Shown: positions 12,077 to 58,249 of the stretch, one piece after another
Numbering within the stretch: position 1 is the first letter of the stretch
Layout of the letters: every line of letters begins with the position of its first letter
Source: Candidatus Omnitrophota bacterium
Lineage (GTDB): Bacteria > Omnitrophota > Gorgyraeia > 2-01-FULL-45-10
Length of the DNA stretch: 64,000 nucleotides
Direction: 5' to 3'
NCBI GenBank assembly: GCA_041650935.1
Contig: JBAZKH010000001.1
Location: 73,243 to 137,242 of the forward strand
Notes under the pieces: model-generated
Told to the model about the DNA's origin: nothing
Database searches by the model: none
The model's input: only the letters and a program-made list of their open reading frames with translations
Made by a program: the position numbers and the translations under genes

Positions 12077-13510
12077 ATGAAAACAATTGGAAAGATACTG
12101 ATCGGGATATTGCTGGGGATTATATTCAGTTTCTTTCCGGGCGGATTTCTTGTCTTCTCAGTCTTCTTATCGGTACTATATTTTATGAACCGGTATCTAA
12201 ATACTCCGTCGAAAGATTTGTTGATAAAGTTATTTATGCTGGGCTTTGCGGTGAGGGTAATTATGGCGTTCGTGAATTATTACGTTGCCGTCGATGTGAT
12301 GCATGACGGCGTCGATACCCAGCCCGACGCAGTCATCTATAATAACAACGCTTATTATATAGCCAATCACCTGAAACCATTCGATAACTATTCGGAAGAT
12401 ATAACCAGAGACCAAAGACTAAAGCTCAGCATGGAGCGTGCGAAGAAGTGGCAAGGTAACAGGATCCCGCCTGTGGGGTCGTATCAGAATGGGTTTTATG
12501 TATTCGTTATAGGGCTCTTCTATTCATGGCTGGGATACTGCCCTATAGCGGCTAAGGTCATGAATTGCATCTTTGGATGCGGGTGTGCGGTATTGACCTA
12601 CTTTATAGCTAAGCATTTGTCCGGTTCCGAGACAATTGCAAAGGCATCCTATGTTGTCACCATGTTCTTCCCATCGCTTATGCTATGGTCGGCTACCCTT
12701 CTGCGTGATTCGATAGCCAATTTTTTATTCCTTGCTTATATGCTATCGTGTCTTCTCTATCTTAAATTTGGAAGAAACCGGGCTTTGCCGGCGGCTTTTG
12801 CAATGATAGTCCTGCTGGCTCTCTTCAGGTTGAAGATAGAGCCTATCCTGACGGCAGGGCTGGGGATCGTAATAATCGCGGGTTTATTGAAAAAGTTCTT
12901 CCCCGCGAAGCGGCTGACAGTTTTTTTTGCGGTTATATTCATTCTTATTATTTCGGCGGTTATGATTGGAAAGAACATCGACTTTGTGACCAACCAGGTA
13001 AATAGTAAGATCGTATTGGCATTCAAGCACCATCAGGCTTATTCGACGCACGATGTGGCATCCGTCTATAAGATATTCAAGGGAGATCTTTACGGGAAGG
13101 CAAATATGAATATCCGTGATTTTCTCGACGTCTCTTTATGTTTTTCCATGCTTAAAGGCCTGGCCTACTATTTTCTATCCCCGTTCCCGTGGCGGATACC
13201 ATGGAATCATTTCTGGCTGTTGATCTTCTATCCCCAGGTTATCGTAACATTTATCTTTCTGCCGTTTATAGCGCTGGGGCTGCTGGTGTCGGCGCGCCGC
13301 GATATTTACGTAACCGCAGTTATGCTGACGGTTTTGGCCATCGTTATCCTGCCTAATGTATTTTCGGAAGGAGTTATCGGTATCGTAGTGCGTCACAGGG
13401 ACATGTTCACGCCATTTTTGATTATCTTCGCGAGCTATGGTTTCTACTCGCTGATGCTGCCAAAAAAGCATCCGGAGGATGTATATCCCATCGGGAGGGA
13501 TGCCCGATGA
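12077..13510 (+). CDS. Polytopic integral membrane protein (putative GT-C glycosyltransferase or glycan polymerase)
   Basis: At least 10 hydrophobic segments and no recognisable soluble catalytic motif. Located inside the glycan cluster. Confidence 0.4.
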   Translation: MKTIGKILIGILLGIIFSFFPGGFLVFSVFLSVLYFMNRYLNTPSKDLLIKLFMLGFAVRVIMAFVNYYVAVDVMHDGVDTQPDAVIYNNNAYYIANHLKPFDNYSEDITRDQRLKLSMERAKKWQGNRIPPVGSYQNGFYVFVIGLFYSWLGYCPIAAKVMNCIFGCGCAVLTYFIAKHLSGSETIAKASYVVTMFFPSLMLWSATLLRDSIANFLFLAYMLSCLLYLKFGRNRALPAAFAMIVLLALFRLKIEPILTAGLGIVIIAGLLKKFFPAKRLTVFFAVIFILIISAVMIGKNIDFVTNQVNSKIVLAFKHHQAYSTHDVASVYKIFKGDLYGKANMNIRDFLDVSLCFSMLKGLAYYFLSPFPWRIPWNHFWLLIFYPQVIVTFIFLPFIALGLLVSARRDIYVTAVMLTVLAIVILPNVFSEGVIGIVVRHRDMFTPFLIIFASYGFYSLMLPKKHPEDVYPIGRDAR

Positions 13511-14961
13511 ATATCGTCCTGATATATCCGCTTCTGTCCAGACAGAGGAGCCTCGTCGACGAGAATAAGCAGTATTGGCCTCCTCTGGGCCTGGCGTATA
13601 TAGCCGCGGTCCTGGAGAGGAACGGCCATAAGGTAACTATTATAGACAGGGATGCGCTGCTTCACAGGCAATCGATGTCTTTTGAAAGGACGGACGAGGA
13701 GACGTTGGGCACGATAAAGCGGGTACGGGCAGATATCGTCGGGTTCAGCGCTACGACGCCCAATATAGCGGATGTCTTCGCCTTGTCGACAAAGATCAAA
13801 AAGATTTCCAGGGAAATAAAGATAGTGCTCGGAGGCCCTCACTCGACGGGTGAGCCGGAACTCACTCTCAAGCTTACGGATGATATAGATGCGGTTTGCA
13901 GGGGCGAGGGCGAATTTACGATGCTCGATCTGGCCGGCGGCAAAGGGTTAAAAGAGACCGCGGGCCTGAGCTTCAAATCCGGTCCGGAGATAGTACATAA
14001 CCCGGAGAGGATGCTTATAAACAATATAGACGATCTGCCGGCCCCGGCGCATCATCTGCTCGACATGGAGTTTTACTTAAGGCCCAGCAGGTTCACCAGC
14101 AGGAACCTGAGTCTGCGCACGACGTCCATCTTTACCGCGAGGGGCTGCCCCTACAGGTGCAATTTCTGCGCGGGCCCGCTCATCTTCTCCGGTAAGGTGA
14201 GGTTCCATTCCGCCGGACGGGTTATCGGCGAGGTGGAACGTTTAATAACCGACTACGGGATCGAAGCGCTATATTTTGCCGAAGATATGTTTTTGAGCGA
14301 CAGGCGAAGGGCCGGTGAGATACTGGAGCTATTTGTGCGTAACGGTATAAATAAGCGGTTGCGCTGGTTTGCCCAGGCAAAAGTGAATGTGATAGACAGG
14401 GATCTTCTTATGCTCATGAAGAGTGCCGGCTGTGCAGGCATCGAATATGGTTTCGAATCCGGTTCGCAGGCGATATTGGATAAGATGAATAAGAGAAGTA
14501 CCGTCGAGGATAATATAAAAGCGGCAAAACTGACGCAGGCGGCGGGTTTAAGGTACCAGGCGAACATAATAGCGGGGTATCCCGGCGAGACGGAACGCGA
14601 TTTCGAACTTACGATCGATTTTCTGAAGAAGATAAAACCCGGCAATATCGGGTTCAATCTATTCATGGCGCTTCCCGGCACGCCCGAGTATATAAAGCTG
14701 AAGAAAACAGGGGATATCTCTTATGACTGGGAGAATGTGGGCAACCCGGAGGGTGGTAAAAATTATACCGCAATGAGCGACCGGGTCTTCCAAAAGATGT
14801 ATGCCAGGGCCAGGCTCAGCGTGATTCTTCCCCTTAATCTGGCGAATTTTATAAGGTATAATATCAGGAACCCGCTCAGGTTCATATATCTTATCCTGAC
14901 ACAATCGCGGGGAATAATAGTCAAGACTGTCCGCTCCGACCTGAAGAGGCTCTTAAGATGA
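13507..14961 (+). CDS. B12-binding domain radical SAM enzyme (class B)
   Basis: N-terminal Rossmann-like B12-binding region (NIVLIYP...LAYIAAVLERNGHKVTIID). Canonical cluster motif ARGCPYRCNFCAG. ~480 aa. Confidence 0.8.
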   Translation: MNIVLIYPLLSRQRSLVDENKQYWPPLGLAYIAAVLERNGHKVTIIDRDALLHRQSMSFERTDEETLGTIKRVRADIVGFSATTPNIADVFALSTKIKKISREIKIVLGGPHSTGEPELTLKLTDDIDAVCRGEGEFTMLDLAGGKGLKETAGLSFKSGPEIVHNPERMLINNIDDLPAPAHHLLDMEFYLRPSRFTSRNLSLRTTSIFTARGCPYRCNFCAGPLIFSGKVRFHSAGRVIGEVERLITDYGIEALYFAEDMFLSDRRRAGEILELFVRNGINKRLRWFAQAKVNVIDRDLLMLMKSAGCAGIEYGFESGSQAILDKMNKRSTVEDNIKAAKLTQAAGLRYQANIIAGYPGETERDFELTIDFLKKIKPGNIGFNLFMALPGTPEYIKLKKTGDISYDWENVGNPEGGKNYTAMSDRVFQKMYARARLSVILPLNLANFIRYNIRNPLRFIYLILTQSRGIIVKTVRSDLKRLLR

Positions 14962-20190: not shown

Positions 20191-20218
20191 AGAACGCAGT
20201 TAATTCTGGAGAGTGAAT

Positions 20219-21679
20219 ATGGCACGAGTATGTCTTGTCCGGCCGCCGTTTTTTAAACTGTACGGAATAGAGAAGGTCCATTTTCCCCTTAGCATAGGTT
20301 ATCTTGCTTCTTATCTCGAGCGGGGCGGGCACGAAGTTAGTTTCGTGGACGGAGAGGTATTCGATTATGGCTTATATGAAGGTATCCTGTATAAGGGCAT
20401 CATTAACGCGGCGCTCTTTTACGCGGACCCGTATTTTATAGAGCGAAAATTCAACGTTGTCGGGAAGGTCATGGAAGATCCGAGGCATAGGGTGTGGGAT
20501 ACATTGATCGGGCGGATCGCGGCCGCCAGGCCTGATGTCGTAGGCATAAGTTGTTATACCATAAACATGACGGCGGTTAATATTATTTCCGAAAGGATAA
20601 AGTCGGAGATAGGCGATATCCCGGTTGTCCTCGGAGGCATACACCCGACCGCGCTTCCCGCCGAAACATTGGAACAGGTCCGCGCTGCCGATTTTGCCGT
20701 TATGGGCGAAGGTGAAGTCACCCTGCTCGACCTGGTCAATGATATCGGGGACGGTAAGAGGACGGGTTTACATATCGCGGGAGTCGTCGAGAGAGGCAGC
20801 GCCGATTTTAAACCGAGGGAATTGATAACGGACCTAGACTCTATTCCTTTTCCGAAGCGCGACTTCTATGACAAGTCAAATTATATATTCGGCGCGCCCC
20901 TTCTGACGTCGCGGGGATGCCCTTTTTCATGTACTTTTTGCGCTTCTCACCTGATGTGGGGGCGCAAAGTGCGCAACAGGAGCGTCCGGAACGTGATAGA
21001 GGAGCTTAAAGTCCTGGCAGGGAAATTCGATGCCGGGCGGATACGCATACTCGATGACACCTTCGTACTGAATAAGCCCTGGATCATGGAATTTTGCGCG
21101 GAACTTAAGGCGAGCGGTCTCAAGCTGAGCTTTAATTGCAGCGGCAGGATAAATACGGTGGACGAGGACCTCTTCAGGGTCCTTAGCGACAGCGGCTTCG
21201 ATTCCATTGCCTTTGGCATCGAGAGCGGCAGCGACAGGATAGTTAAGTCTATAAATAAGAATATAGACCTGTCCCGCGTTGTAGATGTTATCAAGACGGC
21301 AAACAGGTACGGGTTCGACACGACCTCGTTCTACATGACCGGCCACCCCGGCGAGACCGCTGAGGATATCAGGAAATCGGCCGATTTGTTTATACGGTCG
21401 ATGTCTAAACGCGGCGAGCTGAGCATGCTTGTCCCGTATCCGAAGACGGATGCAGGCGAGCGGGCGGTTAAACAGGGTTTCGAATTCAGGGTCGGCGATG
21501 CCTATAAGATGCAGCACGCAAGGAATAGAGTGCTCTTCAATATGACACAGATGCCTGATGCGGCCTTCCTGGCTGAGCATAAGAGGTTCGAAAGGATCAT
21601 TATGCGCCGAAATTATATGACTTTATTCAAAAAGATGGCCAAAATGGCCGTACGTTTCATCACGGGCAGGTTAAAATAA
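20219..21679 (+). CDS. B12-binding domain radical SAM enzyme (class B), paralog 2
   Basis: RBS GGAGAG then ATG gives MARVCLVRPP. B12-binding N-domain; TSRGCPFSCTFCAS; ~486 aa. Confidence 0.8.
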   Translation: MARVCLVRPPFFKLYGIEKVHFPLSIGYLASYLERGGHEVSFVDGEVFDYGLYEGILYKGIINAALFYADPYFIERKFNVVGKVMEDPRHRVWDTLIGRIAAARPDVVGISCYTINMTAVNIISERIKSEIGDIPVVLGGIHPTALPAETLEQVRAADFAVMGEGEVTLLDLVNDIGDGKRTGLHIAGVVERGSADFKPRELITDLDSIPFPKRDFYDKSNYIFGAPLLTSRGCPFSCTFCASHLMWGRKVRNRSVRNVIEELKVLAGKFDAGRIRILDDTFVLNKPWIMEFCAELKASGLKLSFNCSGRINTVDEDLFRVLSDSGFDSIAFGIESGSDRIVKSINKNIDLSRVVDVIKTANRYGFDTTSFYMTGHPGETAEDIRKSADLFIRSMSKRGELSMLVPYPKTDAGERAVKQGFEFRVGDAYKMQHARNRVLFNMTQMPDAAFLAEHKRFERIIMRRNYMTLFKKMAKMAVRFITGRLK

Positions 21680-21814: not shown

Positions 21815-23680
21815 ATGATCAAGAACGAGAATATAGTCTGCATATCGTCGATAGATTGGGACTTCATCTGGCAGGGGCACCAGGAGATAATGGATGCCTT
21901 TGCCAAGAACGGCAACAGGGTCCTTTTTATCGAAAATACAGGCGTCAGGTCGCCGGGTATCAAGGATATCCCGCGCTTACGGAAGAGGCTGGTAAGCTGG
22001 ATAAAGAGCGCCAAGGGTTTCAGGGAAGAACGGGAGAACCTTTTTGTATATTCCCCGCTTGTTCTGCCGTTTCCGTATTCCCGGCTGGCCCGGTTCATTA
22101 ATAAATATACACTCCTCAGATCCCTTAAGAGATGGCTTAAGGTCATGGGCTTTCGTGATCCCATTATCTGGACGTTCCTGCCTACGGGTACGGCCGTCGA
22201 TATAGCAGGTAATATAGACGGTAAATTGCTTATCTATTATTGCATAGCGGATTTCTATAAACTGGTCGACAATTCAGCGAAAGTCAAGAGGACGGAAGAC
22301 GAGTTGATAAAGAGATGCGATCTGGTATTTGCCCAGGGGGATCTGCTGAAAGAGAGATGCCGGCGCCTGAATAAGAATGTCCATAAATTCCCATTCGGGG
22401 TAAATATCGAGGCATTTGAAAGTTATGACCGGCTAAACGGTAAGCTGCCGAAAGAGCTGGAGGGGATAAGAGGACCCGTTGTCGGATATGTGGGAGGTCT
22501 CCACAGGCATGTAGACTTCGAGCTCATAAGGTTCATTTCAGATAAGCATCCTGATTGGTCTATTGTGATGATCGGGCCTGTGCAGGCGGATATATCCGAG
22601 ATCGATAAACGGAAGAATATCCTGCTTTTAGGCAAGAAAGATTTTAATGATCTGCCGGCATATATAAACAGGTTCGACGCCTGCATGATACCGTATATCA
22701 TCAATGACTATACCATGACGGTCTTCCCTACCAAGCTGAACGAATATCATGCCATGGGCAAGCCGGTCGTTTCTACGAGCTTGCCGGAGGTTATCGACTT
22801 TAACAAGAAGAATAACGCTCTCATAGCGGTAGCGGCGGCTAGGGAGGATTTTGACAGCAAGCTGGCGGCGGCGGTTGCCGACAAGAGCGGCGGACTTGCC
22901 GATATGCGGATAAAATCTGCTAAGAATAATAGCTGGACGGAACGTATCGAGGAGATGAGCCGTCTTATCCAATCGACTATGGAGAGGAAGGCGGTCAGTC
23001 CTCCGCACTGGCGGGAAAGTTTCCTGCAGTTATATAAGACCGCCAGGGTACGCATGATAAAGATCCTGGCTGCGGCTATAACCGTTTATGGTCTCATATT
23101 TTATACTCCTATTATCTGGTATGCCGCAAAACCGCTTTTGATTTCCCAGACACCGGTTAAAGCGGATTGCATAGTAGTTTACGGCGGCGGCGTGGGGGAA
23201 TCAGGGAAGGCCGGACAGGGGTATGAAGAGAGGGTACAGCGGGCTGTCGAGTTATACAAAAGCGAATACGCCGGCAAGATGATCTTTTTGTCGGGTTACG
23301 CGTATCTCTTCAAAGAGCCGCTCGTCATGAAGGCGCTGGCTATATCGCTAGGCGTGCCGGAAAAAGATATAATATTGGAAGATATGGCGAAGAATACGTT
23401 CGAGAACGTGGAATTCACCAGGCGTATAGTGCAAAAGCACGGATGGCGGCATATTCTTCTGGTAAGTTCGCCTTACCATATGGGCAGGGTCTCTTTAGTC
23501 TTCCGCAAGATCGCAGGAGATATCGATGTTACGTATACACCGATTGTGAACGGCCATTTTTATGCTCGCACACCCGGCAACCTGGGCTCGAGGTGGAAGA
23601 GGATAAATATAGAACAGATCCGCGGAATACTTCATGAATATATCGGGATTCTCTATTATTGGTTTAAGGGGTATATATAA
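21815..23680 (+). CDS. GT4 glycosyltransferase fused to C-terminal DUF218 (YdcF/ElyC/SanA-like) domain
   Basis: N-terminal ~400 aa is GT-B with KLNEYHAMGKPVVST. C-terminal ~200 aa carries DCIVVYGGGVG...LSGY...LLVSSPYHMGRV, a DUF218 signature. Confidence 0.65.
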   Translation: MIKNENIVCISSIDWDFIWQGHQEIMDAFAKNGNRVLFIENTGVRSPGIKDIPRLRKRLVSWIKSAKGFREERENLFVYSPLVLPFPYSRLARFINKYTLLRSLKRWLKVMGFRDPIIWTFLPTGTAVDIAGNIDGKLLIYYCIADFYKLVDNSAKVKRTEDELIKRCDLVFAQGDLLKERCRRLNKNVHKFPFGVNIEAFESYDRLNGKLPKELEGIRGPVVGYVGGLHRHVDFELIRFISDKHPDWSIVMIGPVQADISEIDKRKNILLLGKKDFNDLPAYINRFDACMIPYIINDYTMTVFPTKLNEYHAMGKPVVSTSLPEVIDFNKKNNALIAVAAAREDFDSKLAAAVADKSGGLADMRIKSAKNNSWTERIEEMSRLIQSTMERKAVSPPHWRESFLQLYKTARVRMIKILAAAITVYGLIFYTPIIWYAAKPLLISQTPVKADCIVVYGGGVGESGKAGQGYEERVQRAVELYKSEYAGKMIFLSGYAYLFKEPLVMKALAISLGVPEKDIILEDMAKNTFENVEFTRRIVQKHGWRHILLVSSPYHMGRVSLVFRKIAGDIDVTYTPIVNGHFYARTPGNLGSRWKRINIEQIRGILHEYIGILYYWFKGYI

Positions 23681-23687
23681 GTCAGGC

Positions 23688-23846
23688 TAAGGTAGTCCCT
23701 CGGTGCAGGACTTAGATTGTTGCACCTCGGGACGATTTGTCTAAAGTTAGATACAAATTAAGGTAGCCCCTCGCTGCCGGAGTTAGACAGTAGCAGCTCG
23801 GGACGATTTGTCAGAGTTAGATAATAACAAATCGGAGGTATGTATA
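23688..23846 (+). promoter_or_regulatory. Structured 5' leader: 2 tandem units of conserved RNA module A (bipartite hairpin) each followed by module B hairpin; terminal B hairpin abuts the SD
   Basis: Unit 1 is GTCCC-tc-GGTGCA-[ggacttagattgt]-TGCACC-tc-GGGAC. Unit 2 is GCCCC-tc-GCTGC-[cggagttagacagta]-GCAGC-tc-GGGAC, with compensatory inner-stem changes. Then GATTTGT-[cagagttagataata]-ACAAATC, then GGAGG, then GTG 23847. Confidence 0.6.
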
Positions 23847-24371
23847 GTGGCGAAGATAATCGATGAGAAGGGCAGGCTTTTCGGTATTATTAATGTAATA
23901 GACCTCGCCGTTATCCTGGTGATACTCTCTTTTGTGCCGATAATATTCATAGGGTATAAGGTTATGAACAAACCGGAAGAGATAACCGGCGCAAAGCAGG
24001 TAGTGATACGTACGGAAATGGTCTCTGCCCGGATAAAATTTTGGGATATAGAGCCCGAATTCAGCGGTATCATAACAAAGGGTGATGTCGAGCGAGATGC
24101 TGCCGGAAAGAAGATAAGCGAAGTTGTAGACATAGTGAGCGTCAACCCTTCCAAAACATGGGTGGTGGTCGAAAATAAGGCGTTAGCGATGATAGAGCAC
24201 CCTGCGAAGAAAGATGTCGTCATCGATGCCAGGATCCTGTGCACGAAGACGGACGGCATCTTATATCATAAGTCCGCGCTTGTAAAGATAGGCAGCCCGA
24301 TAATATTCACTACGGACCTGTATAATTTCCCGGGTCGGATCGTGGGATTGAAGACCGATGATAAAAACTAA
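23847..24371 (+). CDS. Small membrane-anchored protein of unknown function, first gene after the structured leader
   Basis: GTG start 8 nt after GGAGG. One N-terminal TM segment (LAVILVILSFVPIIFIGY) then a ~130-aa soluble domain. No family recognised. Confidence 0.5.
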   Translation: MAKIIDEKGRLFGIINVIDLAVILVILSFVPIIFIGYKVMNKPEEITGAKQVVIRTEMVSARIKFWDIEPEFSGIITKGDVERDAAGKKISEVVDIVSVNPSKTWVVVENKALAMIEHPAKKDVVIDARILCTKTDGILYHKSALVKIGSPIIFTTDLYNFPGRIVGLKTDDKN

Positions 24372-29412: not shown

Positions 29413-30489
29413 GTGAAGATACTGATCATTAACCCCTTTGGGATAGGAGATGTGCTCTTTTCGACCCCACTGATAGAGGCTATAAAGAGAATATTCCCGC
29501 AGTCTTATATCGGATATATCTGTAACAGGAGGGTCTCGGAACTAATAAGGACGAATCCGCACCTGGGCAGGATATTCGTATATGAAAAAGACGATTACAG
29601 GGAGATATGGCGCCACTCCAAGATGAGATGCCTGGTAAAGATACTCGCTTTTTTGCGGGATGTCAGGAAAGAGCGGTTCGACGTATCGATAGACCTTTCG
29701 CTGAATTACCAATACAGCATGCTCTTTAAGCTGATAGGCATAAAGACGCGGGCGGGTTTCAATTACAGGAACAGGGGTAAGTTCCTTACGCACAAAATAG
29801 ATATCGAAAGTTTCGACGATAAACATGTTGTTGAGCATTATCTCGATGTTTTACGGCTTCTGGGTGTCGATCCGTCGAAGGGCATAGCCGCTCCGAAAAT
29901 ATATGTCTCCGAAGAAAGCCGGCGTTTCGGTGAAAAATTTCTGGAAGAAAATAGTATCGCTAAGACGGACCTGCTGATAGGCATGGTGCCCGGTTGCGGC
30001 GCCAGCTGGGGACGGGATGCCGGCCGCAGGCGGTGGGAGGGTAAAAATTTTGCCATTGTTGCCGATAGGCTCATCGAAAAATATAACGCGCGGGTCGTTT
30101 TGCTGGGCAATTCCAAAGAGACAAATATATGCGAAGATGTCCGGGCGGCGACAAACGACAGGGCTATAAACTATAGCGGTAAGACCTCGATCGAAAAACT
30201 TATAGGTATTCTCAGCAGGTGCAAAGTCCTGATAACGAACGAAGGCGGTATGCTTCATATGGCGGCCAGCCTCGGTATCAGGACGGTGTCGATCTTCGGC
30301 CCTGTCGATGAGACCACCTACGGTCCGTATCCCAGGAGCGCAGACCATATTATCCTAGCCAAAAAGGACATTCCATGCAGGCCGTGTTATAAGCGGTTCA
30401 AATATAACGATTGCGATGAAAGGCGCTGTCTGGAGGCTATTACCGTCGATGAAGTCTTCCGGGCCGCGGAGGGCGCGATTAGGCGATGA
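29413..30489 (+). CDS. Family 9 glycosyltransferase (heptosyltransferase-like)
   Basis: MKILIINPFGIGDVLFSTPLIEAIKR...; C-terminal GGMLHMAASLGIRTVSIFGP. Confidence 0.8.
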   Translation: MKILIINPFGIGDVLFSTPLIEAIKRIFPQSYIGYICNRRVSELIRTNPHLGRIFVYEKDDYREIWRHSKMRCLVKILAFLRDVRKERFDVSIDLSLNYQYSMLFKLIGIKTRAGFNYRNRGKFLTHKIDIESFDDKHVVEHYLDVLRLLGVDPSKGIAAPKIYVSEESRRFGEKFLEENSIAKTDLLIGMVPGCGASWGRDAGRRRWEGKNFAIVADRLIEKYNARVVLLGNSKETNICEDVRAATNDRAINYSGKTSIEKLIGILSRCKVLITNEGGMLHMAASLGIRTVSIFGPVDETTYGPYPRSADHIILAKKDIPCRPCYKRFKYNDCDERRCLEAITVDEVFRAAEGAIRR

Positions 30490-31640
30490 AGTGCGATATC
30501 GTAATACCGGTCTGGAACCAGCCGGAGACTACCAGGGAATGCATCGCGGCCATAAGAAGGACGACGCGCTATCCTTACAGGCTCATAATCATAGACAATG
30601 GGAGCGGAGACGAGACGCGGAATTACCTGAAAGAAACGGCGCGGCTATATCCGTCTGAAGTAGAGATTGTGCGGAACGATACGAATCTCGGGTACGTTAA
30701 GGCGGTGAACCAGGGGCTTAAAATTTCAACCGCGCCCTACGTATGTGTTATGAATAACGATACCATACCAGGCGCAGGATGGCTGGAGAGGCTGATAAAT
30801 TTCGCCGAGACACACCGCGGGATAGGGCTGATGAATCCTCTGTGTAACGGTCACGGCAGCCTTTCGATAGATGAGTACGCCGCGCATGTCGCACGGAACG
30901 CGGATAGATATATGGAGATGAACCAGTGCTTCGGATTTTGCACGCTCATCCGCCGCGAGGTCATAGATAAAGTGGGCTGCCTGGACGAGGTCTTCGGGAT
31001 GGGCGGTTACGACGATACGGATTATTCGATGAGGGCATGCAGGGCAGGATACCTTTGCGCGTCGGTCCACTCCGCGTATGTATATCACAAAGAGCACGTC
31101 TCTTTCAGGGCCATGGGTGCCAAAGACAGTTCTACGCTTAAAGGGCAGGCGGAATACCTTAAAAAGTGGCCGCGCCATCTGCGGGTCGGATTGACTTTTT
31201 CTGTCGATAGCAGGACCGATAGGCCTGAGATCGCTTCTGTTTTGAAGGCGATATTGTTTCTGGCCAGGGAGTGGTGCTGGGTCAATTTCTGGATCATAGG
31301 CGACGAAAAAGAGAACAGGGAGAAGATAGCGTCGGTTTCTGCCGAAATCGGCATGCCGCTGCACCAGAATATAAAATTCAATTTTATCCCGGCGGCCTTT
31401 GCGAAACTCCAGACTTTAACGAGAGTTATCGAGCGCGCCTTCGGAACGAAGAGAAGGAAGAGGTATGATGCGGTCCTTGTCGATAACGACGGTGTTGCGG
31501 CGCTCCTGAATTTCTTCTTCGTCGTGCATAATACAAGGATAATCCTGGCAAAGCCCGGATCCGGGATGACGGCGGAAGCATGCCGGATGATTGCCGAGAT
31601 ACGGAAGAGCGGGGAGAGGTTGTACGCAATTAACGCGTAG
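30486..31640 (+). CDS. GT2 domain + conserved ~130-aa C-terminal extension of unknown function (paralog A of 4)
   Basis: MKCDIVIPVWNQPETTRECIAAI...IIIDNGSGDET...DTNLGYVKAVNQG; KKWPRHLRVGLTFSVDSR extension. Confidence 0.7.
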   Translation: MKCDIVIPVWNQPETTRECIAAIRRTTRYPYRLIIIDNGSGDETRNYLKETARLYPSEVEIVRNDTNLGYVKAVNQGLKISTAPYVCVMNNDTIPGAGWLERLINFAETHRGIGLMNPLCNGHGSLSIDEYAAHVARNADRYMEMNQCFGFCTLIRREVIDKVGCLDEVFGMGGYDDTDYSMRACRAGYLCASVHSAYVYHKEHVSFRAMGAKDSSTLKGQAEYLKKWPRHLRVGLTFSVDSRTDRPEIASVLKAILFLAREWCWVNFWIIGDEKENREKIASVSAEIGMPLHQNIKFNFIPAAFAKLQTLTRVIERAFGTKRRKRYDAVLVDNDGVAALLNFFFVVHNTRIILAKPGSGMTAEACRMIAEIRKSGERLYAINA

Positions 31641-31659
31641 TTTAAGGAGGGGTTCTACA

Positions 31660-32778
31660 GTGGAGAAGGTGCTGGTTACGGGAGGGGCGGGATTCATCGG
31701 TTCCCATCTGGTTGATGAGCTCATCAACCGTAAGTATAAGGTAAAGGTCCTCGATATCTTCGATCGGCAGGTCCATGGCGGTAAGAGGCCCGGCTATTTG
31801 AATAAAAGATGCGAATATATAAAAGGGGACGTTCGCAGGCCCGGGGACCTGGAGAAAGCGGTCTCTGGCGTAAACGTGGTCTTCCACCTCGCCGCACAGG
31901 TCGGAGTGGGGCAATCGATGTATCAGATCGCGAAGTACGTTGACCATAACACTCTCGGCACGGCCATCCTTATGGAATATATTATATCGAACCGCCGCAG
32001 GCTCGGTATCAGGAAGGTAGTGGTTGCGAGTTCGATGAGCATATACGGCGAAGGCGCTTACCGGTGCAGCAAGTGCGGCCCGGCCGAACCTGTAGAGAGG
32101 GATGAAGCGGATCTGAAGAAGAGGGTCTGGGAATATTCATGCCCTAAGTGTTCCGGCCCGCTGAAACCGGCGGCGACTACGGAAGAGAAGAGTTTGCGTT
32201 CAAATTCTATTTATGCGATTTCGAAGAAGGATCAGGAAGAGATAGTGCTCAATCTGGCCAAGGCGTATAAGCTGCCTGCAGTAGCTTTAAGGTTCTTCAA
32301 CGTTTACGGGCCCAGACAATCCCTTTCCAATCCTTACACGGGGGTTTGTGCCATATTCCAGTCGCGGATAAAGAACGATAACCCTGTCCTGATATACGAA
32401 GACGGCCGCCAGACGAGGGATTTCATAAGCGTAAAGGATATAGCCGCCGCTAATATCTTTGTCATGAATTCTCCGGCGGCGGACTACCGGTATTTCAATG
32501 TCGGAACCGGGCGGGCCACCAGCGTCCTTGATATAGCCAGGACGCTCAGCCGTCTTTACGGTAAAGAACCAGACATGATAATAAAGAACGAATACAGGAT
32601 GGGCGATATCCGTCACTGTTTCGCGGATATATCGAAAATAAAGAGCATAGGCTTTAAGCCGTCCGTCAATTTCGACGACGGCATGCAAGAGATGGTGGAG
32701 TGGGGCAAACGGGCCGTTTCCGTCGACAGGGTTAATGAGGCGGATAAGCTGCTTGCGCGGATGAATTTAAAGATATAG
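31660..32778 (+). CDS. SDR sugar epimerase/dehydratase with an inserted CxxC...CxxC zinc-ribbon
   Basis: RBS AGGAGGGG then GTG gives MEKVLVTGGAGFIGSHL. Catalytic SSMSIYGE ... YAISKK. A 40-aa insert YRCSKCG...YSCPKCSG (four Cys) lies between the catalytic Ser and Tyr. Confidence 0.75.
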   Translation: MEKVLVTGGAGFIGSHLVDELINRKYKVKVLDIFDRQVHGGKRPGYLNKRCEYIKGDVRRPGDLEKAVSGVNVVFHLAAQVGVGQSMYQIAKYVDHNTLGTAILMEYIISNRRRLGIRKVVVASSMSIYGEGAYRCSKCGPAEPVERDEADLKKRVWEYSCPKCSGPLKPAATTEEKSLRSNSIYAISKKDQEEIVLNLAKAYKLPAVALRFFNVYGPRQSLSNPYTGVCAIFQSRIKNDNPVLIYEDGRQTRDFISVKDIAAANIFVMNSPAADYRYFNVGTGRATSVLDIARTLSRLYGKEPDMIIKNEYRMGDIRHCFADISKIKSIGFKPSVNFDDGMQEMVEWGKRAVSVDRVNEADKLLARMNLKI

Positions 32779-37587: not shown

Positions 37588-37887
37588 TAAAGGTAGTCCC
37601 TCGGCGCGGGAGTGAGAGCGTTGCACCTCGGGATGATTTGCAGGAGTGAGATAAGGGCAAATCACGGTACAATTTGTCTAAAGTTAGATACAGATTAAGG
37701 TAGTCCCTCGGCGCGGGAGTTAGATTGTTGCGCCTCGGGATGATTTGCAAGAGTGAGATAAGGGCAAATCACGGGACGATTTGTCTAAAGTTAGATATAA
37801 ATTAAGGTAGTCCCTCGCTGCCGGAGTTAGACAGTGGCAGCTCGGGACGATTTGTCTAAAGTTAGATAATAACAAATCGGAGACATA
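37588..37887 (+). promoter_or_regulatory. Structured 5' leader: three tandem 107-nt units (module A + module B/B') ending at the SD of the GT2 gene
   Basis: GTCCC at 37596, 37703 and 37810, an exact 107-nt period. Inner stems GGCGCG/TGCACC (imperfect), GGCGC/GCGCC and GCTGCC/GGCAGC covary. Loops carry GGAGTTAGA. B' is GATTTGCA-[rgagtgagataaggg]-CAAATC. The final B is GATTTGT...ACAAATC, then GGAG, then ATG 37888. Confidence 0.6.
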
Positions 37888-38649
37888 ATGGAGAAGATAC
37901 CGGTATCGGTAGTGGTCATAACAAAGAACGAAGAAAATAATATAGCAGATTGCTTAAAGAGCGTCTCGTGGGCGGACGAGATCGTGGTGCTCGATGACGA
38001 TTCTACCGACAAGACCGTAACCATAGCCAGGCAATATACCGACAGGGTCTCCGCGCGCAAGATGGACATAGAGGGGCGGCACAGGAACTACGCGTACGGC
38101 CTGGCTAAAAATAAGTGGGTCCTGTCGCTCGATGCCGATGAACGCGCAAGCGCCGAGTTGGAAAACGAATTGCGCGGGCTCTTCAACGGCGGGATGAAAG
38201 CGGCGGCCTATTCGATACCTATAAAGACTTTCATAGGAAAACGCTGGATAAGATACGGCGGATGGTATCCCGCCCCTAAGGTGCGGCTCTTCGACAAAGG
38301 GCGCTTCAAGTATGAAGAGGCCGAGGTCCATCCCAGGGCATTTATAGACGGTACATGCGGCCATCTTACGAAGGATATAGTCCATTATTCATACAGGGAT
38401 TTTCACGATTTCTTCCAGAGTCTCAACAACCAGACGACGTTAGAGGCAAAAAAATGGTTCAAAGAACGCCGAAAGATAGGGTTTTTGAAGATGTACCGGA
38501 AGGCCATAAGCAGATTCTTGAAGGCCTATCTCCAGAAGGCCGGTTTCAGGGACGGGCTCCTGGGGTTCGTCATATCTTATGGCGGCGGCCTGTATCAATT
38601 CATGAGCTACGTAAAATACCGCGAGATGCTTGATAATGAAGGCGAATAG
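37888..38649 (+). CDS. Small family 2 glycosyltransferase (KdtX/WaaE-like)
   Basis: VSVVVITKNEENNIADCLKSVSWADEIVVLDDDSTDKT. Preceded by three tandem structured leader repeats and GGAG. Confidence 0.7.
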   Translation: MEKIPVSVVVITKNEENNIADCLKSVSWADEIVVLDDDSTDKTVTIARQYTDRVSARKMDIEGRHRNYAYGLAKNKWVLSLDADERASAELENELRGLFNGGMKAAAYSIPIKTFIGKRWIRYGGWYPAPKVRLFDKGRFKYEEAEVHPRAFIDGTCGHLTKDIVHYSYRDFHDFFQSLNNQTTLEAKKWFKERRKIGFLKMYRKAISRFLKAYLQKAGFRDGLLGFVISYGGGLYQFMSYVKYREMLDNEGE

Positions 38650-40482: not shown

Positions 40483-41862
40483 ATGAAGATACTTTTGTTA
40501 AAACCGTTCAACAAGAGCGACCATATCCAGCCGTCGCTGGGCCTCGGGTACCTGGCGGAGTCCGTCCGCAGGGACCATGAGGTGATGATACTCGACTGTA
40601 TCAAGGATAAAATCAGCGTTGATAAATTGGAAGGTGTGCTGAAGCGCTGCAGGCCGGACGTTCTCGGTATGCAGTGCTATACCTTCGACCTGAATTTCAT
40701 CGATGCCGCGCTGGTGTCCGCGAAGGCATTCGATAAAAATATCGTTACCGTAACGGGCGGTCCGCATCCCTCGGCAGCCGCGGCGGAGATGATGGATATG
40801 TTCCGGGGCCGGCTAGACTTTGCTTTCTCAGGCGAGGCGGAAATAGGATTCCCGAAACTTTTGGATTGCCTGAAGAACGGCGGCAGGAATTTTGACGGTG
40901 TGCCGGGGCTTATGTGGAGAGAGGGCGCGGTATTGAAGTCGAATCCGAAGACGGTCTCTGAGGACCTTGACAATATCCCGATGCCCGCCTGGGACCTTAT
41001 CCGTCCCGAGACGTACCCGGAGTCACAGCACGGAGCTTTCTTCAAACAGTTCCCGATAGCGCCCATCATGATAACGCGGGGATGCCCTTACCCGTGCACC
41101 TTCTGCGCCGGGGGAACGGTCTCCGGAAAGAAGGTCAGGCACAGGTCCATCGATAATGTGTTAAAGGAGCTCATCTACCTTAATAAGGAGCGCGGGATCA
41201 AAGAATTTCATGTCATCGATGATAATTTCACCATGGATATGGGTTACGCCAAAGAATTCCTGCGCAGGCTGAAAGCCTTAAACCTCGGCATGACCTGGGC
41301 GGTCCCGAACGGCGTCCGGATGGATGCTCTCGACGACGAACTTCTGAAGCTTATGAAGGAGACGGGGTTGTATATGATTTCTTTAGGGATAGAATCCGGC
41401 TCCGACAAGGTCCTGCGCGACATGAAGAAGAGCCTTACGATATCTAAGATAAAGGAATGCGTGAAAAGGATAAACGACGGCGGTATAGACGTCTCCGGCT
41501 TCTTCATACTCGGATTTCCCGGAGAGACCGAGGAGTCGATAAGAGATACCATACGTCTTTCGCTTGAACTGAAGCTCGTCAGGGCCAACTTCTTCACATA
41601 TCTTCCTTTCCCGGGGTCCGAAAGCTATGAGCGATTGCGCGCCGAAAATAAACTTAAAGGGATAGACTGGAACAACTTCTATTTCATGACCGCCTCCTAT
41701 GCGCCCGACGGAATGACAAGGGCGCGGCTCAAGAATCTGCAGCGTTTCGCTTTCGCCAGGTTCTATCTCCGCCCGCGTATCATCGCGTATAACATTATGT
41801 CTATACAGTCGTTTAGACATTTTCTGTTTCTATTCAAGAGGTTCTTCCGATGGCTCGCTTAA
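40483..41862 (+). CDS. B12-binding domain radical SAM enzyme (class B), paralog 3
   Basis: MKILLLKP B12-binding-like N-domain; TRGCPYPCTFCAG. Confidence 0.8.
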   Translation: MKILLLKPFNKSDHIQPSLGLGYLAESVRRDHEVMILDCIKDKISVDKLEGVLKRCRPDVLGMQCYTFDLNFIDAALVSAKAFDKNIVTVTGGPHPSAAAAEMMDMFRGRLDFAFSGEAEIGFPKLLDCLKNGGRNFDGVPGLMWREGAVLKSNPKTVSEDLDNIPMPAWDLIRPETYPESQHGAFFKQFPIAPIMITRGCPYPCTFCAGGTVSGKKVRHRSIDNVLKELIYLNKERGIKEFHVIDDNFTMDMGYAKEFLRRLKALNLGMTWAVPNGVRMDALDDELLKLMKETGLYMISLGIESGSDKVLRDMKKSLTISKIKECVKRINDGGIDVSGFFILGFPGETEESIRDTIRLSLELKLVRANFFTYLPFPGSESYERLRAENKLKGIDWNNFYFMTASYAPDGMTRARLKNLQRFAFARFYLRPRIIAYNIMSIQSFRHFLFLFKRFFRWLA

Positions 41863-46416: not shown

Positions 46417-47081
46417 AAGGGTTGGAACCTATAATATCATCCATTAAATCTTACCTGGAGCTGGAACGCTCAACGGGGATCGAAGAGTTTTTTTTCGCCT
46501 CACCGGAAGGTAATGCCGCGAAAGGAACCGCCTCACCGGATGCTCTCGCGGCTCTAAAAAAAGAGGTGCTCGGCTGTCAGGAGTGCGATCTGTGCCGGAC
46601 GCGGACCAATGTCGTCTTCGGCGCAGGCAACCCAAAAGCGAAGCTCATGTTTGTAGGAGAGGCGCCTGGCCAGGAAGAAGATAAACAGGGGCTGCCGTTT
46701 GTGGGCCGCGCAGGACAGCTATTAACCAAGATAATCGAGGCGATGGGCCTGAAGCGCCAGGATGTATACATCGCCAATATACTGAAGTGCCGCCCGCCCA
46801 ACAACCGTCCGCCGCTTCCCGCCGAGATACTCGCCTGCCGGGATAATGTAAAACGGCAGGTGGAGATAATAAAACCCCGCGTGATATGTACGCTGGGGAA
46901 GTTTGCCAGCCAGACGCTCCTTGCCAAGGAGACGCCTATTTCGGCCCTGAGGGGAAATTTCTATGAATATAACGGCATAAAAGTTATGCCGACCTTTCAT
47001 CCTGCTTACCTTTTAAGAAATCCCGAAGACAAGCGGCTGGTCTGGCAGGACATGAAGAAAGTGATGAAAGAGTTGAAGTGA
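46407..47081 (+). CDS. Uracil-DNA glycosylase, family 4
   Basis: [50 protein letters not shown] is the family-4 UDG signature. Confidence 0.8.
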
Positions 47082-49081: not shown

Positions 49082-49103
49082 AATAAGGTAAAGTAAAATT
49101 TTG

Positions 49104-49126
49104 CCCGAGAGGAATCCCCTCTCGGG
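49104..49126 (+). other. Perfect 9-bp hairpin 23 nt after the priA stop
   Basis: CCCGAGAGG-aatc-CCTCTCGGG. Confidence 0.5.
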
Positions 49127-49181
49127 GTTGGCGTATCGCAGGGACGCTCAATTTTGGACCATGCCAAAATTTTCGCTCGGT

Positions 49182-49213
49182 AAAACTTGTGCGAACGCTG
49201 TCGCACAAGTTTT
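49182..49213 (+). other. Perfect 13-bp hairpin in a non-coding island
   Basis: AAAACTTGTGCGA-acgctg-TCGCACAAGTTTT. Confidence 0.5.
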
Positions 49214-58160: not shown

Positions 58161-58249
58161 AGCGGTCCCTCGGCGCGGCCTATAATTAGATAGTAGCCTT
58201 GCCCGGGACGGTTTGTAGAAGTAAAACTACAACAAATCGGAGGTAAAAA
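58161..58249 (+). promoter_or_regulatory. Divergent single copy of the same leader module upstream of porD
   Basis: GGTCCC-tc-GGCGCGG...CCTTGCC-c-GGGAC (degenerate inner stem), then GTTTGTAG...CTACAACAAATC, then GGAGG, then ATG 58250. It shares the GTCCCTCGG and ACAAATCGGAGG ends with the other copies. Confidence 0.45.

What the first reader, a model, noticed from the sequence alone, without database searches (positions are those of the whole stretch)
23681..23846. Second locus of the same leader module (two units) at the head of a >20-gene co-directional glycan operon
It uses the same GTCCC..GGGAC bipartite hairpin. The inner stem is GGTGCA/TGCACC in unit 1 and GCTGC/GCAGC in unit 2, with GGA-containing loops (ggaCTTAGAttgt / cGGAGTTAGAcagt). 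The terminal GATTTGT...ACAAATC hairpin ends immediately 5' of GGAGG and the GTG start of a small membrane-anchored protein of unknown function. The position, straight after the only strong intergenic break (stop 23680) and before a run of overlapping genes reaching ~47 kb, suggests it controls entry into the downstream operon.
Basis: seen in the sequence. Interest (0 to 1): 0.75.

Follow-up and report, generated by a model that had tools for sequence, protein, structure and literature searches.

The report
Dispersed twin-hairpin leader repeat of Omnitrophota
The two hairpin units are real, but they are copies of a ~70-base twin-hairpin repeat that some Omnitrophota bacteria place, always in the gene's orientation, flush against the ribosome-binding site or tRNA start of well over a hundred unrelated genes. 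It is therefore a general-purpose leader, apparently undescribed, and not a switch for this sugar-polymer operon.

Summary
Window 23695-23833 holds two tandem ~70-nt units. Each has a two-tier hairpin H1 (GYCCC-UC-[variable stem-loop]-UC-GGGAC) directly followed by an AU-rich hairpin H2 (GAUUUGY...RCAAAUY). The last H2 ends flush at GGAGG, 8 nt before the GTG of a DUF4330 gene.

The same module also sits at 37596-37878 (before a GT2 gene) and at 58165-58238 (between rubredoxin and ferredoxin). Scans found it in 42 loci of 12 Candidatus Omnitrophota MAGs and in 107 metagenome stretches. Of 148 distinct units, 111 are followed at offset 0 by a Shine-Dalgarno sequence and at least 10 by tRNA position +1. 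All are in the sense orientation.

Covariation supports both hairpins. The module is absent from Rfam 15, and the text searches run here found no description of it.

Five syntenic relatives keep the same glycan gene order but have no module at this junction. One of them carries a module at a different junction of the same cluster. The glycan cluster also continues upstream of 23.68 kb.

Best reading: a REP-like dispersed repeat that serves as a sense-strand structured leader or boundary element for whatever gene follows it. The mechanism is inferred, not shown.

The parts
23681..23694 (+). 5' flank GTCAGGCTAAGGTA, running from just after the TAA stop (23678-23680) to H1. It includes the GTAG 'tag' whose final G is the first base of H1.
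   Evidence: The same (A)GTCAGGC(T/A)AAGGTA extension precedes units in L033, L096, L103, L105 and L147. GTAG precedes or overlaps H1 in 76 of 149 units.
23695..23733 (+). Unit 1, hairpin H1: GTCCC-tc-GGTGCA-[13-nt loop]-TGCACC-tc-GGGAC.
   Evidence: The covariance-model hit 23689-23759 scores 60 bits.
23734..23759 (+). Unit 1, hairpin H2: GATTTGT-ctaaagttagat-ACAAATT.
   Evidence: It is identical, apart from one base, to the 'extra' hairpin of locus B.
23760..23765 (+). Inter-unit spacer AAGGTA.
23766..23804 (+). Unit 2, hairpin H1: GCCCC-tc-GCTGC-[loop]-GCAGC-tc-GGGAC, with one C.A mismatch in the outer stem.
   Evidence: The covariance-model hit 23760-23839 scores 82.5 bits.
23805..23833 (+). 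Unit 2, hairpin H2: GATTTGT-cagagttagataata-ACAAATC, ending flush at the SD.
23834..23838 (+). Shine-Dalgarno GGAGG. Its first G can pair with the C of GGGAC as an 8th pair of H2.
   Evidence: The column 51 / column 84 pair is C-G in 38, U-A in 5 and U-G in 1 of 47 units.
23847..24371 (+). DUF4330 gene (174 aa, GTG start, N-terminal hydrophobic helix): the gene served by this copy of the leader.
   Evidence: PF14221, E 1.7e-18. Orthologues.
37596..37887 (+). Locus B. It holds three units (37596-37663, 37703-37770, 37810-37878). Units 1 and 2 each carry a 36-nt internal duplication of GGGAY+H2, which gives the 107-nt period. GGAG at 37879-37882 precedes the ATG at 37888 of a GT2 gene.
   Evidence: 66-92 bits. 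Units 2-3 are about 93% identical to locus A.
58165..58249 (+). Locus C. One unit (58165-58238) with a longer H1 top, then GGAGG 58239-58243. It is intercistronic: it starts 4 nt after the rubredoxin stop and precedes the ferredoxin ATG at 58250.
   Evidence: 50.3 bits. The same rubredoxin-[module]-ferredoxin-OFOR arrangement occurs in nzgw317. A promoter consensus lies upstream of rubredoxin at 57951-57978.

Best explanation
The element is two tandem copies of a ~70-nt module. The module belongs to a large dispersed repeat family found, in the collections scanned, almost only in a subset of Candidatus Omnitrophota.

It is transcribed with its host genes on the sense strand, either as a 5' leader or as an intercistronic spacer. 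It folds into two adjacent hairpins:
- H1 has an invariant base (G/A-UCCC, a UC/UC 2x2 internal loop, then G...C) under a freely covarying top.
- H2 is AU-rich, and its 3' end is flush with the first base of the Shine-Dalgarno sequence or with tRNA position +1.

I read it as a portable boundary or leader cassette that acts after transcription on whatever follows it:
- The self-contained fold locks up the spacer, so the RBS (or the tRNA body) stays free of upstream context.
- After any processing, the downstream RNA keeps a hairpin-protected 5' end and the upstream cistron keeps a hairpin-protected 3' end.
- The invariant, pseudo-symmetric H1 base is probably the docking site of a conserved factor, either an RNase or RNA-binding protein, and/or the protein that copies the element.

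The family spreads and is homogenised within genomes in a REP-like manner. The copy at 23.7 kb is a lineage-specific arrival in the middle of a glycan cluster, copied to or from the 37.7 kb locus.

Shown here: family membership, the structure, sense orientation, the flush-to-SD/tRNA rule, lack of glycan specificity, filled versus empty syntenic sites, and genome-specific subfamilies.

Follows from established knowledge: in tRNA-linked copies with a promoter upstream, RNase P must cut exactly at the 3' base of H2.

Inferred: the insulation and stability role, any cleavage in mRNA copies, and the existence and identity of the trans factor.
For: Structure:
- 94% of cells pair in 19 pairs over 47 units. 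0 of 500 shuffles reach the observed percentage paired or covariation score. Slid controls give 34-45%.
- RNAalifold independently returns the same fold.
- H2 variants GAUUUGY/RCAAAUC, GAUUUGA/UCAAAUC and GAAAUUUGC/GCAAAUUUC keep pairing.

Position rule:
- Of 148 distinct units, the SD lies at offset 0 in 111, offset 1 in 5 and offset 2-4 in 6. tRNA +1 is flush in at least 10. The modal start codon is 10-11 nt after H2.
- All strong hits are co-oriented with the downstream gene.

Transcribed rather than acting as a promoter:
- Full TTGACA/TATAAT-type promoters lie at variable distances upstream, for example in L001, L030, L045, L127, L130, L134 and L146.
- Locus C and L038 are intercistronic, starting 4-10 nt after a stop codon.
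- G.U outnumbers A.C 19:10 in core pairs.

Generic use: downstream genes include rpsP, rplU, rplM, tuf, rubredoxin, ferredoxin, IscU, PFK, lipoproteins and tRNA-Ser/Gly/Leu/Pro/Lys.

Retention at orthologous sites:
- rubredoxin-[module]-ferredoxin in the window and in nzgw317.
- tRNA-Ser(tga) in three MAGs.
- tRNA-[module]-tuf in three contigs.

Turnover: empty syntenic sites in L052-L056 and a reciprocal filled site in L049.

Intragenomic copying:
- Locus A is about 93% identical to locus B units 2-3.
- Variable regions are 0.69 identical within genomes against 0.46 between genomes.

RBS accessibility: unpaired probability is 0.59 with the native module against 0.51 with a shuffled module (Wilcoxon p = 1e-6).
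Against: - There are no transcript data, so sense transcription and any processing remain unproven.
- The accessibility gain is small. It is what any stable self-contained fold would give, and the RBS is freer still with no leader at all (0.68).
- A purely structural insulator would not need invariant stem sequences. The model therefore leans on an unidentified trans factor.
- A hairpin flush with the RNase P site is not obviously helpful for tRNA maturation.
- Covariation cannot distinguish an RNA hairpin from an ssDNA hairpin recognised by a transposase.
- Relatives manage without the module at this junction, so its contribution here may be small or nil.
Confidence: 0.5

Rival explanations
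1. It is a purely selfish REP/MITE-like mobile DNA. The hairpins are ssDNA recognition structures for a transposase such as a RAYT/HUH enzyme. The element has no role for the host. The position next to the SD and the single orientation only reflect where insertions are tolerated or targeted.
For: - Filled and empty syntenic sites occur in both directions.
- Subfamilies are genome-specific.
- A near-identical two-unit block occurs at two loci 14 kb apart.
- There are tandem arrays, and H1 copies nested inside H1.
- A GTAG tag is present in 76 of 149 units. GTAG-tagged stem-loops are known in the PVC superphylum (PMC3733652).
- The asymmetric UC/UC loop would let a protein tell the two DNA strands apart.
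Against: - The junction with tRNA +1 is flush across at least five tRNA species whose 5' sequences differ (GGAGG, GGAGA, GCGAG, GCGGG, GCGGA, GGGGG). No sequence-targeted DNA insertion would explain that.
- Orthologous sites are retained between genomes with ~70% protein identity.
- There is no target-site duplication (P = 0.16 and 0.51).
- There are no inverted pairs, and all copies are in the sense orientation.
- Typical REPs sit at a fixed distance from the upstream ORF and a variable distance from the downstream one (PMC3733652). This family does the opposite.
- No RAYT-like ORF was found in 1.06 Mb of held flanks. This is a weak test, because the query sequence was recalled from memory.
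Confidence: 0.2
2. It is a dedicated RNA 'punctuation' site. A conserved endoribonuclease docks on H1 and cuts exactly at the 3' base of H2. This would create mRNAs that begin at GGAGG and tRNAs with mature 5' ends.
For: - The same boundary (CAAAUC|G) is used for SDs and for tRNA +1.
- For tRNA-linked copies with promoters about 30 nt upstream (L042, L050), a cut at this position must occur.
- The H1 base is invariant and pseudo-symmetric, as expected for a protein site.
- The C51/G84 and U51/A84 covariation ties the junction nucleotide into H2.
Against: - No cleavage data exist.
- RNase P alone explains the tRNA case.
- Other tRNAs in the same loci lack the module.
- No candidate enzyme has been identified.
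- Internal units of arrays are followed by AAGGTA or ATA, not by a functional RNA.
Confidence: 0.12
3. It is a binding array for a global translational regulator or titration target (CsrA-like, S1-like or Csp-like). The regulator would sit next to the SD and tune translation of a large regulon.
For: - The module lies immediately 5' of the SD in more than 120 units.
- In one large subfamily both loops show the same motif, GAGU(G/U)AGAU, and H1 loops start with GGAG.
- Tandem arrays would multiply such sites.
- It is analogous to the TAACTGA repeats found just upstream of start codons in Beggiatoaceae (PMC4679880).
Against: - The loop motifs are absent from most units: 93 of 148 have it in neither loop.
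- They are absent from whole genomes (nzgw317, MEGAHIT-0.790, LacPavin).
- tRNA-linked copies have nothing to translate.
Confidence: 0.08
4. It is a cis-acting processive antiterminator RNA, like the put RNAs of phage HK022. Two adjacent stem-loops in the nascent leader would modify RNA polymerase so that it reads through long operons.
For: - It has two directly adjacent hairpins of about 70 nt in leaders and inside very long co-directional gene runs.
- It is in the sense orientation and occurs upstream of tRNA, ribosomal-protein and polysaccharide genes. These are classes that use antitermination in other bacteria (my own knowledge of rrn boxA, RfaH/ops, LoaP and EAR).
Against: - The exact abutment to the SD or tRNA +1 is unexplained by this model.
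- Many copies precede single short genes such as the 62-aa ferredoxin, rubredoxin and xseB.
- Relatives run the same glycan cluster without it.
- Rfam gives no match to EAR or any other family.
Confidence: 0.05
5. This is the first reader's view: an operon-specific riboregulator or attenuator that gates entry into the glycan operon. A DNA-level variant is that the module itself is a promoter with its start site at the G after CAAATC.
For: - It lies in a 166-nt gap before a long run of glycan genes.
- GGGAC falls at about -35 relative to that G, a geometry noted by inspection.
Against: - It is not glycan-specific and not at the cluster head.
- It is absent at the syntenic site in five relatives.
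- There is no terminator or sigma-70 consensus at the site.
- Compensatory changes occur in H2, and the length of H1 varies from 19 to more than 39 nt. Both are incompatible with a linear double-stranded promoter.
- Canonical promoters lie upstream of many copies.
Confidence: 0.05

Closest known systems
REP / BIME elements: GTAG-tagged repetitive extragenic palindromes, RAYT-associated (PMC3733652)
   Same: - Short, high-copy extragenic stem-loops, often with a GTAG at one end.
- Co-transcribed with genes.
- Genome-specific families and filled/empty polymorphism.
- Known in the PVC superphylum.
- Proposed roles in mRNA stabilisation.
   Different: - REPs are single 20-40-bp palindromes, commonly in inverted pairs. 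They lie close to the upstream ORF's 3' end and at variable distance from the downstream ORF.
- This module has two different hairpins (~70 nt), always in one orientation, never in inverted pairs, and flush with the downstream SD or tRNA.
- GTAG is present in only 51% of units.
- No RAYT has been seen.
Correia (CREE/NEMIS) and ERIC/IRU elements: co-transcribed MITEs (my own knowledge)
   Same: Dispersed intergenic repeats that become part of mRNAs, fold into hairpins, are processed by RNase III, and alter the stability or expression of neighbouring genes.
   Different: - Those have terminal inverted repeats spanning the whole element, target-site duplications (TA for Correia), and insert in both orientations at variable distances from genes.
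- Here there are no TIRs, no TSD, a strict orientation and a strict position.
TAACTGA direct repeats upstream of start codons in Beggiatoaceae, cyanobacteria and Bacteroidetes (PMC4679880)
   Same: An abundant lineage-restricted repeat within a few nucleotides of start codons of functionally unrelated genes, including ribosomal protein genes. It is interpreted as a post-transcriptional regulator site of unknown mechanism.
   Different: - Those are unstructured heptamer direct repeats that largely replace a canonical RBS.
- Here it is a structured twin hairpin placed next to a canonical GGAGG, and also next to tRNAs.
Phage T7 intercistronic RNase III sites, and synthetic 5'-UTR insulators such as RiboJ or Csy4 hairpins (my own knowledge)
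   Same: Irregular hairpins with internal loops sit between cistrons, just upstream of RBSs. They standardise or define the 5' end of the downstream message and leave a protective hairpin on the flanking RNAs.
   Different: - No cleavage has been shown here.
- H1 plus H2 is shorter than a classical RNase III substrate unless the two helices stack.
- This is a cellular, multi-genome family and also abuts tRNAs.
HK022 put antiterminator RNAs (my own knowledge)
   Same: About 70 nt, with two adjacent stem-loops in a nascent leader. Function depends on the lower stems rather than the loops.
   Different: - There is no sequence relation.
- put is phage-specific and needs no fixed distance to a downstream RBS.
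- Function cannot be tested with these tools.

Membership tests
REP / REPIN (RAYT-mobilised GTAG palindromes) | A short imperfect palindrome tagged at one end by an unpaired GTAG. | tested here: inconclusive
   GTAG (its G being the first paired base of H1) is present in 76 of 149 units; the others carry GAAG, ATAG, ATTG and similar. H1 alone would fit the definition, but the H1+H2 unit is longer than 20-40 bp.
REP / REPIN (RAYT-mobilised GTAG palindromes) | Units occur frequently as inverted pairs, in both orientations, mostly just downstream of ORFs. | tested here: not met
   All strong covariance-model hits are co-oriented with the downstream gene, and the only opposite-strand hits are weak self-matches. 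The distance to the downstream SD is 0 in 111 of 148 units, while the distance to the upstream ORF varies. This contrasts with PMC3733652, section 15.
REP / REPIN (RAYT-mobilised GTAG palindromes) | An associated RAYT (Y1/HUH transposase) gene is flanked by the repeats. | tested here: inconclusive
   tblastn with an E. coli RAYT sequence recalled from memory, against 1.06 Mb of held loci, gave no hit better than E = 1.8. Whole genomes were not available.
MITE (for example Correia, ERIC) | Terminal inverted repeats and a target-site duplication. | tested here: not met
   The two hairpins are independent and the ends are not inverted repeats. The longest shared flank word is no greater than in permuted pairings (mean 3.78 against 3.65, P = 0.16).
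Any curated RNA family (Rfam 15: riboswitches, leaders, EAR, ribozymes, sRNAs) | A score at or above the family gathering threshold. | tested here: not met
   There are 0 hits in the 64-kb window. At E <= 10 on 23600-23900 the only match is a 10-bit chance hit to a snoRNA. In 28 related loci only tRNAs and one FMN riboswitch are found.
CsrA/RsmA-binding leader | GGA motifs are presented in hairpin loops, with one overlapping the SD, and this is conserved across members. | tested here: not met
   GGAG-type loops occur only in one subfamily. Loops in nzgw317, MEGAHIT-0.790 and LacPavin lack GGA. The module also precedes tRNAs.
Intrinsic terminator / attenuator | A GC-rich hairpin followed by a U tract. 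| tested here: not met
   No terminator-like site lies in the module at any of the three loci. H2 is followed by GGAGG.
Sigma-70 promoter (the module itself) | -35 and -10 hexamers at 16-18 bp spacing, with no requirement for base pairing. | tested here: not met
   No consensus lies inside the module on the + strand at locus A. Compensatory changes and variable H1 length argue for a folded single strand. Canonical promoters lie upstream at variable distance.
Integron attC site | R''/R' core sites (RYYYAAC / GTTRRRY) in arrays of cassettes next to an integrase. | tested here: not met
   No GTTRRRY or RYYYAAC at the ends, by inspection. Contexts are housekeeping genes and tRNAs on many contigs.
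HK022 put-type antiterminator RNA | Two adjacent stem-loops that bind the transcribing RNA polymerase and suppress termination. | not testable with these tools
   Only the two-hairpin architecture can be seen. No model or assay was available.

The most novel reading that the evidence does not exclude
The module is the recognition signal of an RNA 'punctuation' system peculiar to Omnitrophota. A dedicated nuclease (or RNase P/III guided by the fold) would cut exactly at the 3' base of H2. Many mRNAs would then begin at their Shine-Dalgarno sequence, and some tRNAs would receive their mature 5' end from the same signal. This would be a bacterial, cis-encoded counterpart of tRNA punctuation or a common leader.
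Probability: 0.12. Interest if true: 0.9.

Novelty: new variant of a known kind. Interest (0 to 1): 0.6.

Why it matters
If the reading holds, a whole branch of an uncultured, ultra-small-celled phylum reuses one conserved structured leader. It sits in front of translation genes, redox genes, envelope genes and tRNAs.

- This points to a shared, still unidentified factor that acts at the 5' boundary of functional RNAs.
- It gives a ready-made handle (a covariance model) for annotating transcription-unit and RBS boundaries in Omnitrophota MAGs.
- It offers a natural example of a portable RBS or tRNA 'insulator'.
- It is a useful caution: an intergenic break created by such a repeat is not evidence for an operon start.

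Tried and rejected
- Rfam, at gathering and at permissive thresholds, gave nothing.
- Literature searches by phylum plus RNA terms, by sequence strings and by concept found no description. They returned only general REP and TAACTGA analogues.
- Exact look-up of the window's own DUF4330 protein failed twice, probably because of the V/M first residue. Homologues were used instead.
- The target-site duplication test was not significant.
- A sigma-54 reading (GG-N-GC spacing too short) and sigma-70 or ECF-like promoter readings of GGGAC...CAAATC|G were considered by inspection. They were rejected because H2 covaries, H1 length varies, and real promoters lie upstream.
- TRAP and HutP (GAG/UAG repeat) and ANTAR (hexaloop) readings of the AGUUAGAU loops were rejected on spacing, loop size and lack of conservation.
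- Pairing of the H1 5' arm with the SD as a switch gives only a mismatched 6-mer, so it was not pursued.
- The integron attC reading was rejected (no core sites; housekeeping contexts).
- Some apparent TATAAT boxes upstream proved to be coding sequence, for example the rubredoxin stop region in L038. Only full -35/-10 cases are therefore cited.
- Single-sequence folding z-scores are weak (-1.0 to -2.2).
Full report
**What is at 23681-23846.** The sequence holds two tandem units.
- Unit 1 is GTCCC-tc-GGTGCA-[ggacttagattgt]-TGCACC-tc-GGGAC (23695-23733), followed without a spacer by GATTTGT-[ctaaagttagat]-ACAAATT (23734-23759).
- After AAGGTA comes unit 2: GCCCC-tc-GCTGC-[...]-GCAGC-tc-GGGAC (23766-23804) and GATTTGT-[cagagttagataata]-ACAAATC (23805-23833).
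- GGAGG follows at 23834-23838. The GTG at 23847 opens a 174-aa protein that Pfam assigns to DUF4330.

The module is not a chance palindrome:
- The core pattern has 0.00 expected matches in shuffles.
- Repeat finding shows the same unit three times at 37.6 kb and once at 58.2 kb.
- A covariance model built later finds exactly these six units in 64 kb, all on the + strand, at 50-92 bits. The next hit scores 11.9 bits.

Folding one sequence alone is not impressive (z = -1.0 to -2.2).

**The module is not tied to glycan genes.** Locus B precedes a GT2 gene. Locus C lies between rubredoxin and a ferredoxin that heads a 2-oxoacid:ferredoxin oxidoreductase operon. It starts 4 nt after the rubredoxin stop, and the only promoter consensus lies upstream of rubredoxin.

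**Distribution.** One scan of 185,579 species-representative genomes with GTCCCTCG-N18-40-TCGGGAYGRTTTG returned 51 loci.
- 42 lie in 12 Candidatus Omnitrophota MAGs, up to about 14 contigs in one MAG.
- One canonical copy is in a MAG labelled Planctomycetia.
- The remaining eight lack the second hairpin, and their number is within what chance predicts for such a pattern in 596 Gb (my estimate).

A scan of JGI metagenomes with a pattern spanning both hairpins gave 107 stretches. The window itself comes from an NCBI Omnitrophota MAG contig of 710 kb.

Rfam 15 has no family that matches, either in the window or in 28 related loci. Full-text searches found no description.

**Anatomy and structure.** In 47 aligned units the invariant positions are:
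- the H1 base (UCCC/GGGA);
- the first pair above the internal loop (G...C);
- the core of H2 (AUUU/AAAU).

The UC/UC 2x2 internal loop is nearly invariant (one unit has UU on the 5' side). The top of H1 and both loops vary.

The proposed pairs are formed in 94% of cells. 0 of 500 column shuffles reach the observed percentage paired or covariation score. Slid controls give 34-45%. Four inner H1 pairs and the closing pair of H2 show many double changes. RNAalifold predicts the same fold without guidance.

More divergent copies keep H1 but carry different, still self-complementary AU-rich H2 arms: GAAAUUUGC/GCAAAUUUC, GAAAUC/GAUUUC and GAUUUGA/UCAAAUC.

The last base of GGGAC covaries with the base that follows H2 (C-G in 38, U-A in 5). 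H2 can therefore extend by one pair into the SD or tRNA, in competition with the first pair of H1.

In nzgw317 extra tiers (GYCCC plus a GA/GA tandem mismatch) are stacked inside H1. In one case a complete H1 is nested in another.

G.U pairs outnumber A.C mismatches 19:10 in the well-supported pairs. This mildly favours the gene-sense strand as the folded strand.

**The position rule.** This is the most striking result. Of 148 distinct units pooled from genomes, metagenomes and the window:
- 111 are followed at offset 0 by GGAG/GAGG-type SDs, with a start codon most often 10-11 nt after H2;
- 11 more have the SD 1-4 nt away, mostly the GGGAU variant with one extra A;
- 6 are internal units of arrays;
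- at least 10 abut a tRNA gene, with H2's last base at -1 and tRNA +1 next. The gap is 0 in most, and 1 where the extra A is present. The tRNAs are Ser, Gly, Leu, Pro and Lys.

Every copy is co-oriented with the gene it precedes.

Downstream genes are diverse and often highly expressed: rpsP, rplU, rplM, tuf (three contigs with tRNA-[module]-tuf), rubredoxin, ferredoxin, IscU, phosphofructokinase and several lipoproteins.

On the upstream side the distance is not fixed. Many copies start 0-25 nt after a co-directional stop codon, sometimes sharing the TAG of GGTAG. Others lie behind gaps that contain full TTGACA-N17-TATAAT-type promoters, whose -10 box ends 8-40 nt before H1.

The module is therefore transcribed as a leader or intercistronic spacer. 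It is not itself a sigma-70 promoter, and it has no terminator features.

DUF4330 orthologues of 51-57% identity were traced to five contigs.
- All keep the order (Asn synthase, GT2, radical SAM) - GT1(-DUF218) - DUF4330 - hypothetical - GT4 - epimerase - MraY-like - Wzy_C - GT9.
- At the GT1/DUF4330 junction the genes overlap or are 6-30 nt apart: stop, about 20 nt, (A)GGAGG, 5-6 nt, GTG.
- The model finds no module anywhere in these 50 kb.

In STD1_81, which carries many modules elsewhere, the same cluster has a module between the orthologues of window genes 30486-31640 and 31591-32778. There the window has only TAG-ttta-AGGAGG-N9-GTG.

So filled and empty sites occur in both directions within one conserved cluster.

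In the window, co-directional glycan genes also extend at least 14 kb upstream of 23.68 kb. The 166-nt 'break' is thus created by the repeat and does not mark an operon head.

By contrast, rubredoxin-[module]-ferredoxin-OFOR is shared by the window and nzgw317. Module-tRNA-Ser(tga) is shared by three MAGs. Some sites are therefore retained over long times.

**How the family evolves.**
- Locus A is about 93% identical to units 2-3 of locus B, apart from a 36-nt internal duplication of GGGAY+H2 in B.
- The variable parts are much more alike within a genome than between genomes (0.69 against 0.46 for the H1 top, p = 2e-45). This holds even at orthologous sites (L008 against L015; window C against L038).
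- This is the signature of intragenomic copying or homogenisation, as for REP-type repeats.
- There is no target-site duplication and there are no inverted pairs.
- Only half of the units carry the GTAG tag.
- A weak tblastn test for a RAYT in 1.06 Mb of flanks was negative.
- Classical REPs are fixed relative to the upstream ORF and variable relative to the downstream one (PMC3733652). This family does the reverse.

**Mechanism.** The facts to be explained are:
- sense orientation;
- a self-contained covarying fold;
- invariant stem sequences and an invariant pyrimidine internal loop;
- a boundary that coincides with the first base of the SD or of a mature tRNA;
- use both behind promoters and between cistrons.

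A DNA-level insertion preference cannot 'see' tRNA +1 in tRNAs whose 5' sequences differ. The boundary must therefore be kept by selection acting on the RNA.

For tRNA-linked copies with upstream promoters (for example L042 and L050), RNase P necessarily cuts at the base of H2. This follows from the established role of RNase P. Whether mRNA-linked copies are cut is unknown.

I therefore favour a portable leader or boundary element, as described under the best explanation. A modest computational hint fits this. The 16 nt after H2 are more often unpaired with the native module than with dinucleotide-shuffled versions (0.59 against 0.51, p = 1e-6). Any stable local fold would do the same, and having no leader at all is better still (0.68).

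The invariant, pseudo-two-fold H1 base implies a sequence-specific partner. I cannot say whether that partner is an RNase, an RNA-binding protein or the protein that copies the element.

**Loops.** In the window lineage, in STD1_81 and in many metagenome contigs, both loops carry GAGU(G/U)AGAU and the H1 loops begin with GGAG. However, 93 of 148 units have the motif in neither loop, and whole genomes lack it. It is a subfamily trait and not the conserved core.

**Verdict.**
- The feature is real and statistically solid.
- The operon-entry interpretation fails its own synteny test.
- The element is one instance of an apparently undescribed, phylum-restricted, REP-like twin-hairpin leader with an unusually strict flush-to-RBS/tRNA placement.
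- Its function remains inferred.

Noticed in passing
window 49082-49761: A 680-nt gap between a priA-like gene (47078-49081) and an fmt-like gene (49762-50694). It has no ORF of 100 aa or more, several GC-rich hairpins and no Rfam hit. It could hold an unannotated RNA or a decayed gene.
   Followed up: partly
window 23839-23860 versus 37883-37900: Similarity between loci A and B seems to continue about 17 nt past the SD into the first codons (ATAgTGGcGAAGATA against ATAaTGGaGAAGATA; V-A-K-I against M-E-K-I). This is either chance or the start region was copied along with the module.
   Followed up: no
window 37664-37702 and 37771-37809: Locus B units 1 and 2 carry a 36-nt internal duplication of GGGAY+H2. 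This gives two alternative GGGA partners for the GTCCC arm and eight hairpins in 316 nt.
   Followed up: partly
L038 5874-5971 (nzgw317); also L007, L014, L032, L037, L046: H1 is built in extra tiers: GTCCC-tc-[GCCCC-ga-[GTCCC-tc-[...]-tc-GGGAC]-ga-GGGGC]-tc-GGGAC. It has tandem GA/GA internal loops, and in L038 a complete H1 is nested inside another.
   Followed up: partly
L019 6316-6395 and 6591-6754: A module followed by a truncated tRNA-Ser fragment lies 275 nt upstream of an identical module followed by the intact tRNA-Ser(tga). It looks like a duplication or integration scar.
   Followed up: no
L007 4463-4600: A variant module (H2 GAAATC/GATTTC) is flush with the ATG of rplM, with no SD. 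It is preceded by a TTGACA-17-TAAGAT promoter and a terminator-like hairpin plus a T-run.
   Followed up: no
L101, L126, L145: The 3' end of a tRNA, then 15-25 nt, then the module, then tuf (MAKEAF...), in three different metagenome contigs. The module separates a tRNA from an mRNA within one likely transcript.
   Followed up: no
window 13507-14961, 20213-21679, 40483-41862: Three paralogous B12-binding radical SAM genes sit inside the glycan cluster (D10, 15, 58, 70). There are also paralogous GT2 genes at about 30.5, 36.6 and 38.6 kb (D5-D7, D11).
   Followed up: no
L045 184-308: An FMN riboswitch (85 bits) lies on the same STD1_81 contig that carries two module copies.
   Followed up: no
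L090 / L129 and L027 3936-4017: These units are followed by neither an SD, a tRNA nor any Rfam family (for example GCAAATC-aagggacacgtctgtttaagacc). They may precede unknown non-coding RNAs.
   Followed up: partly
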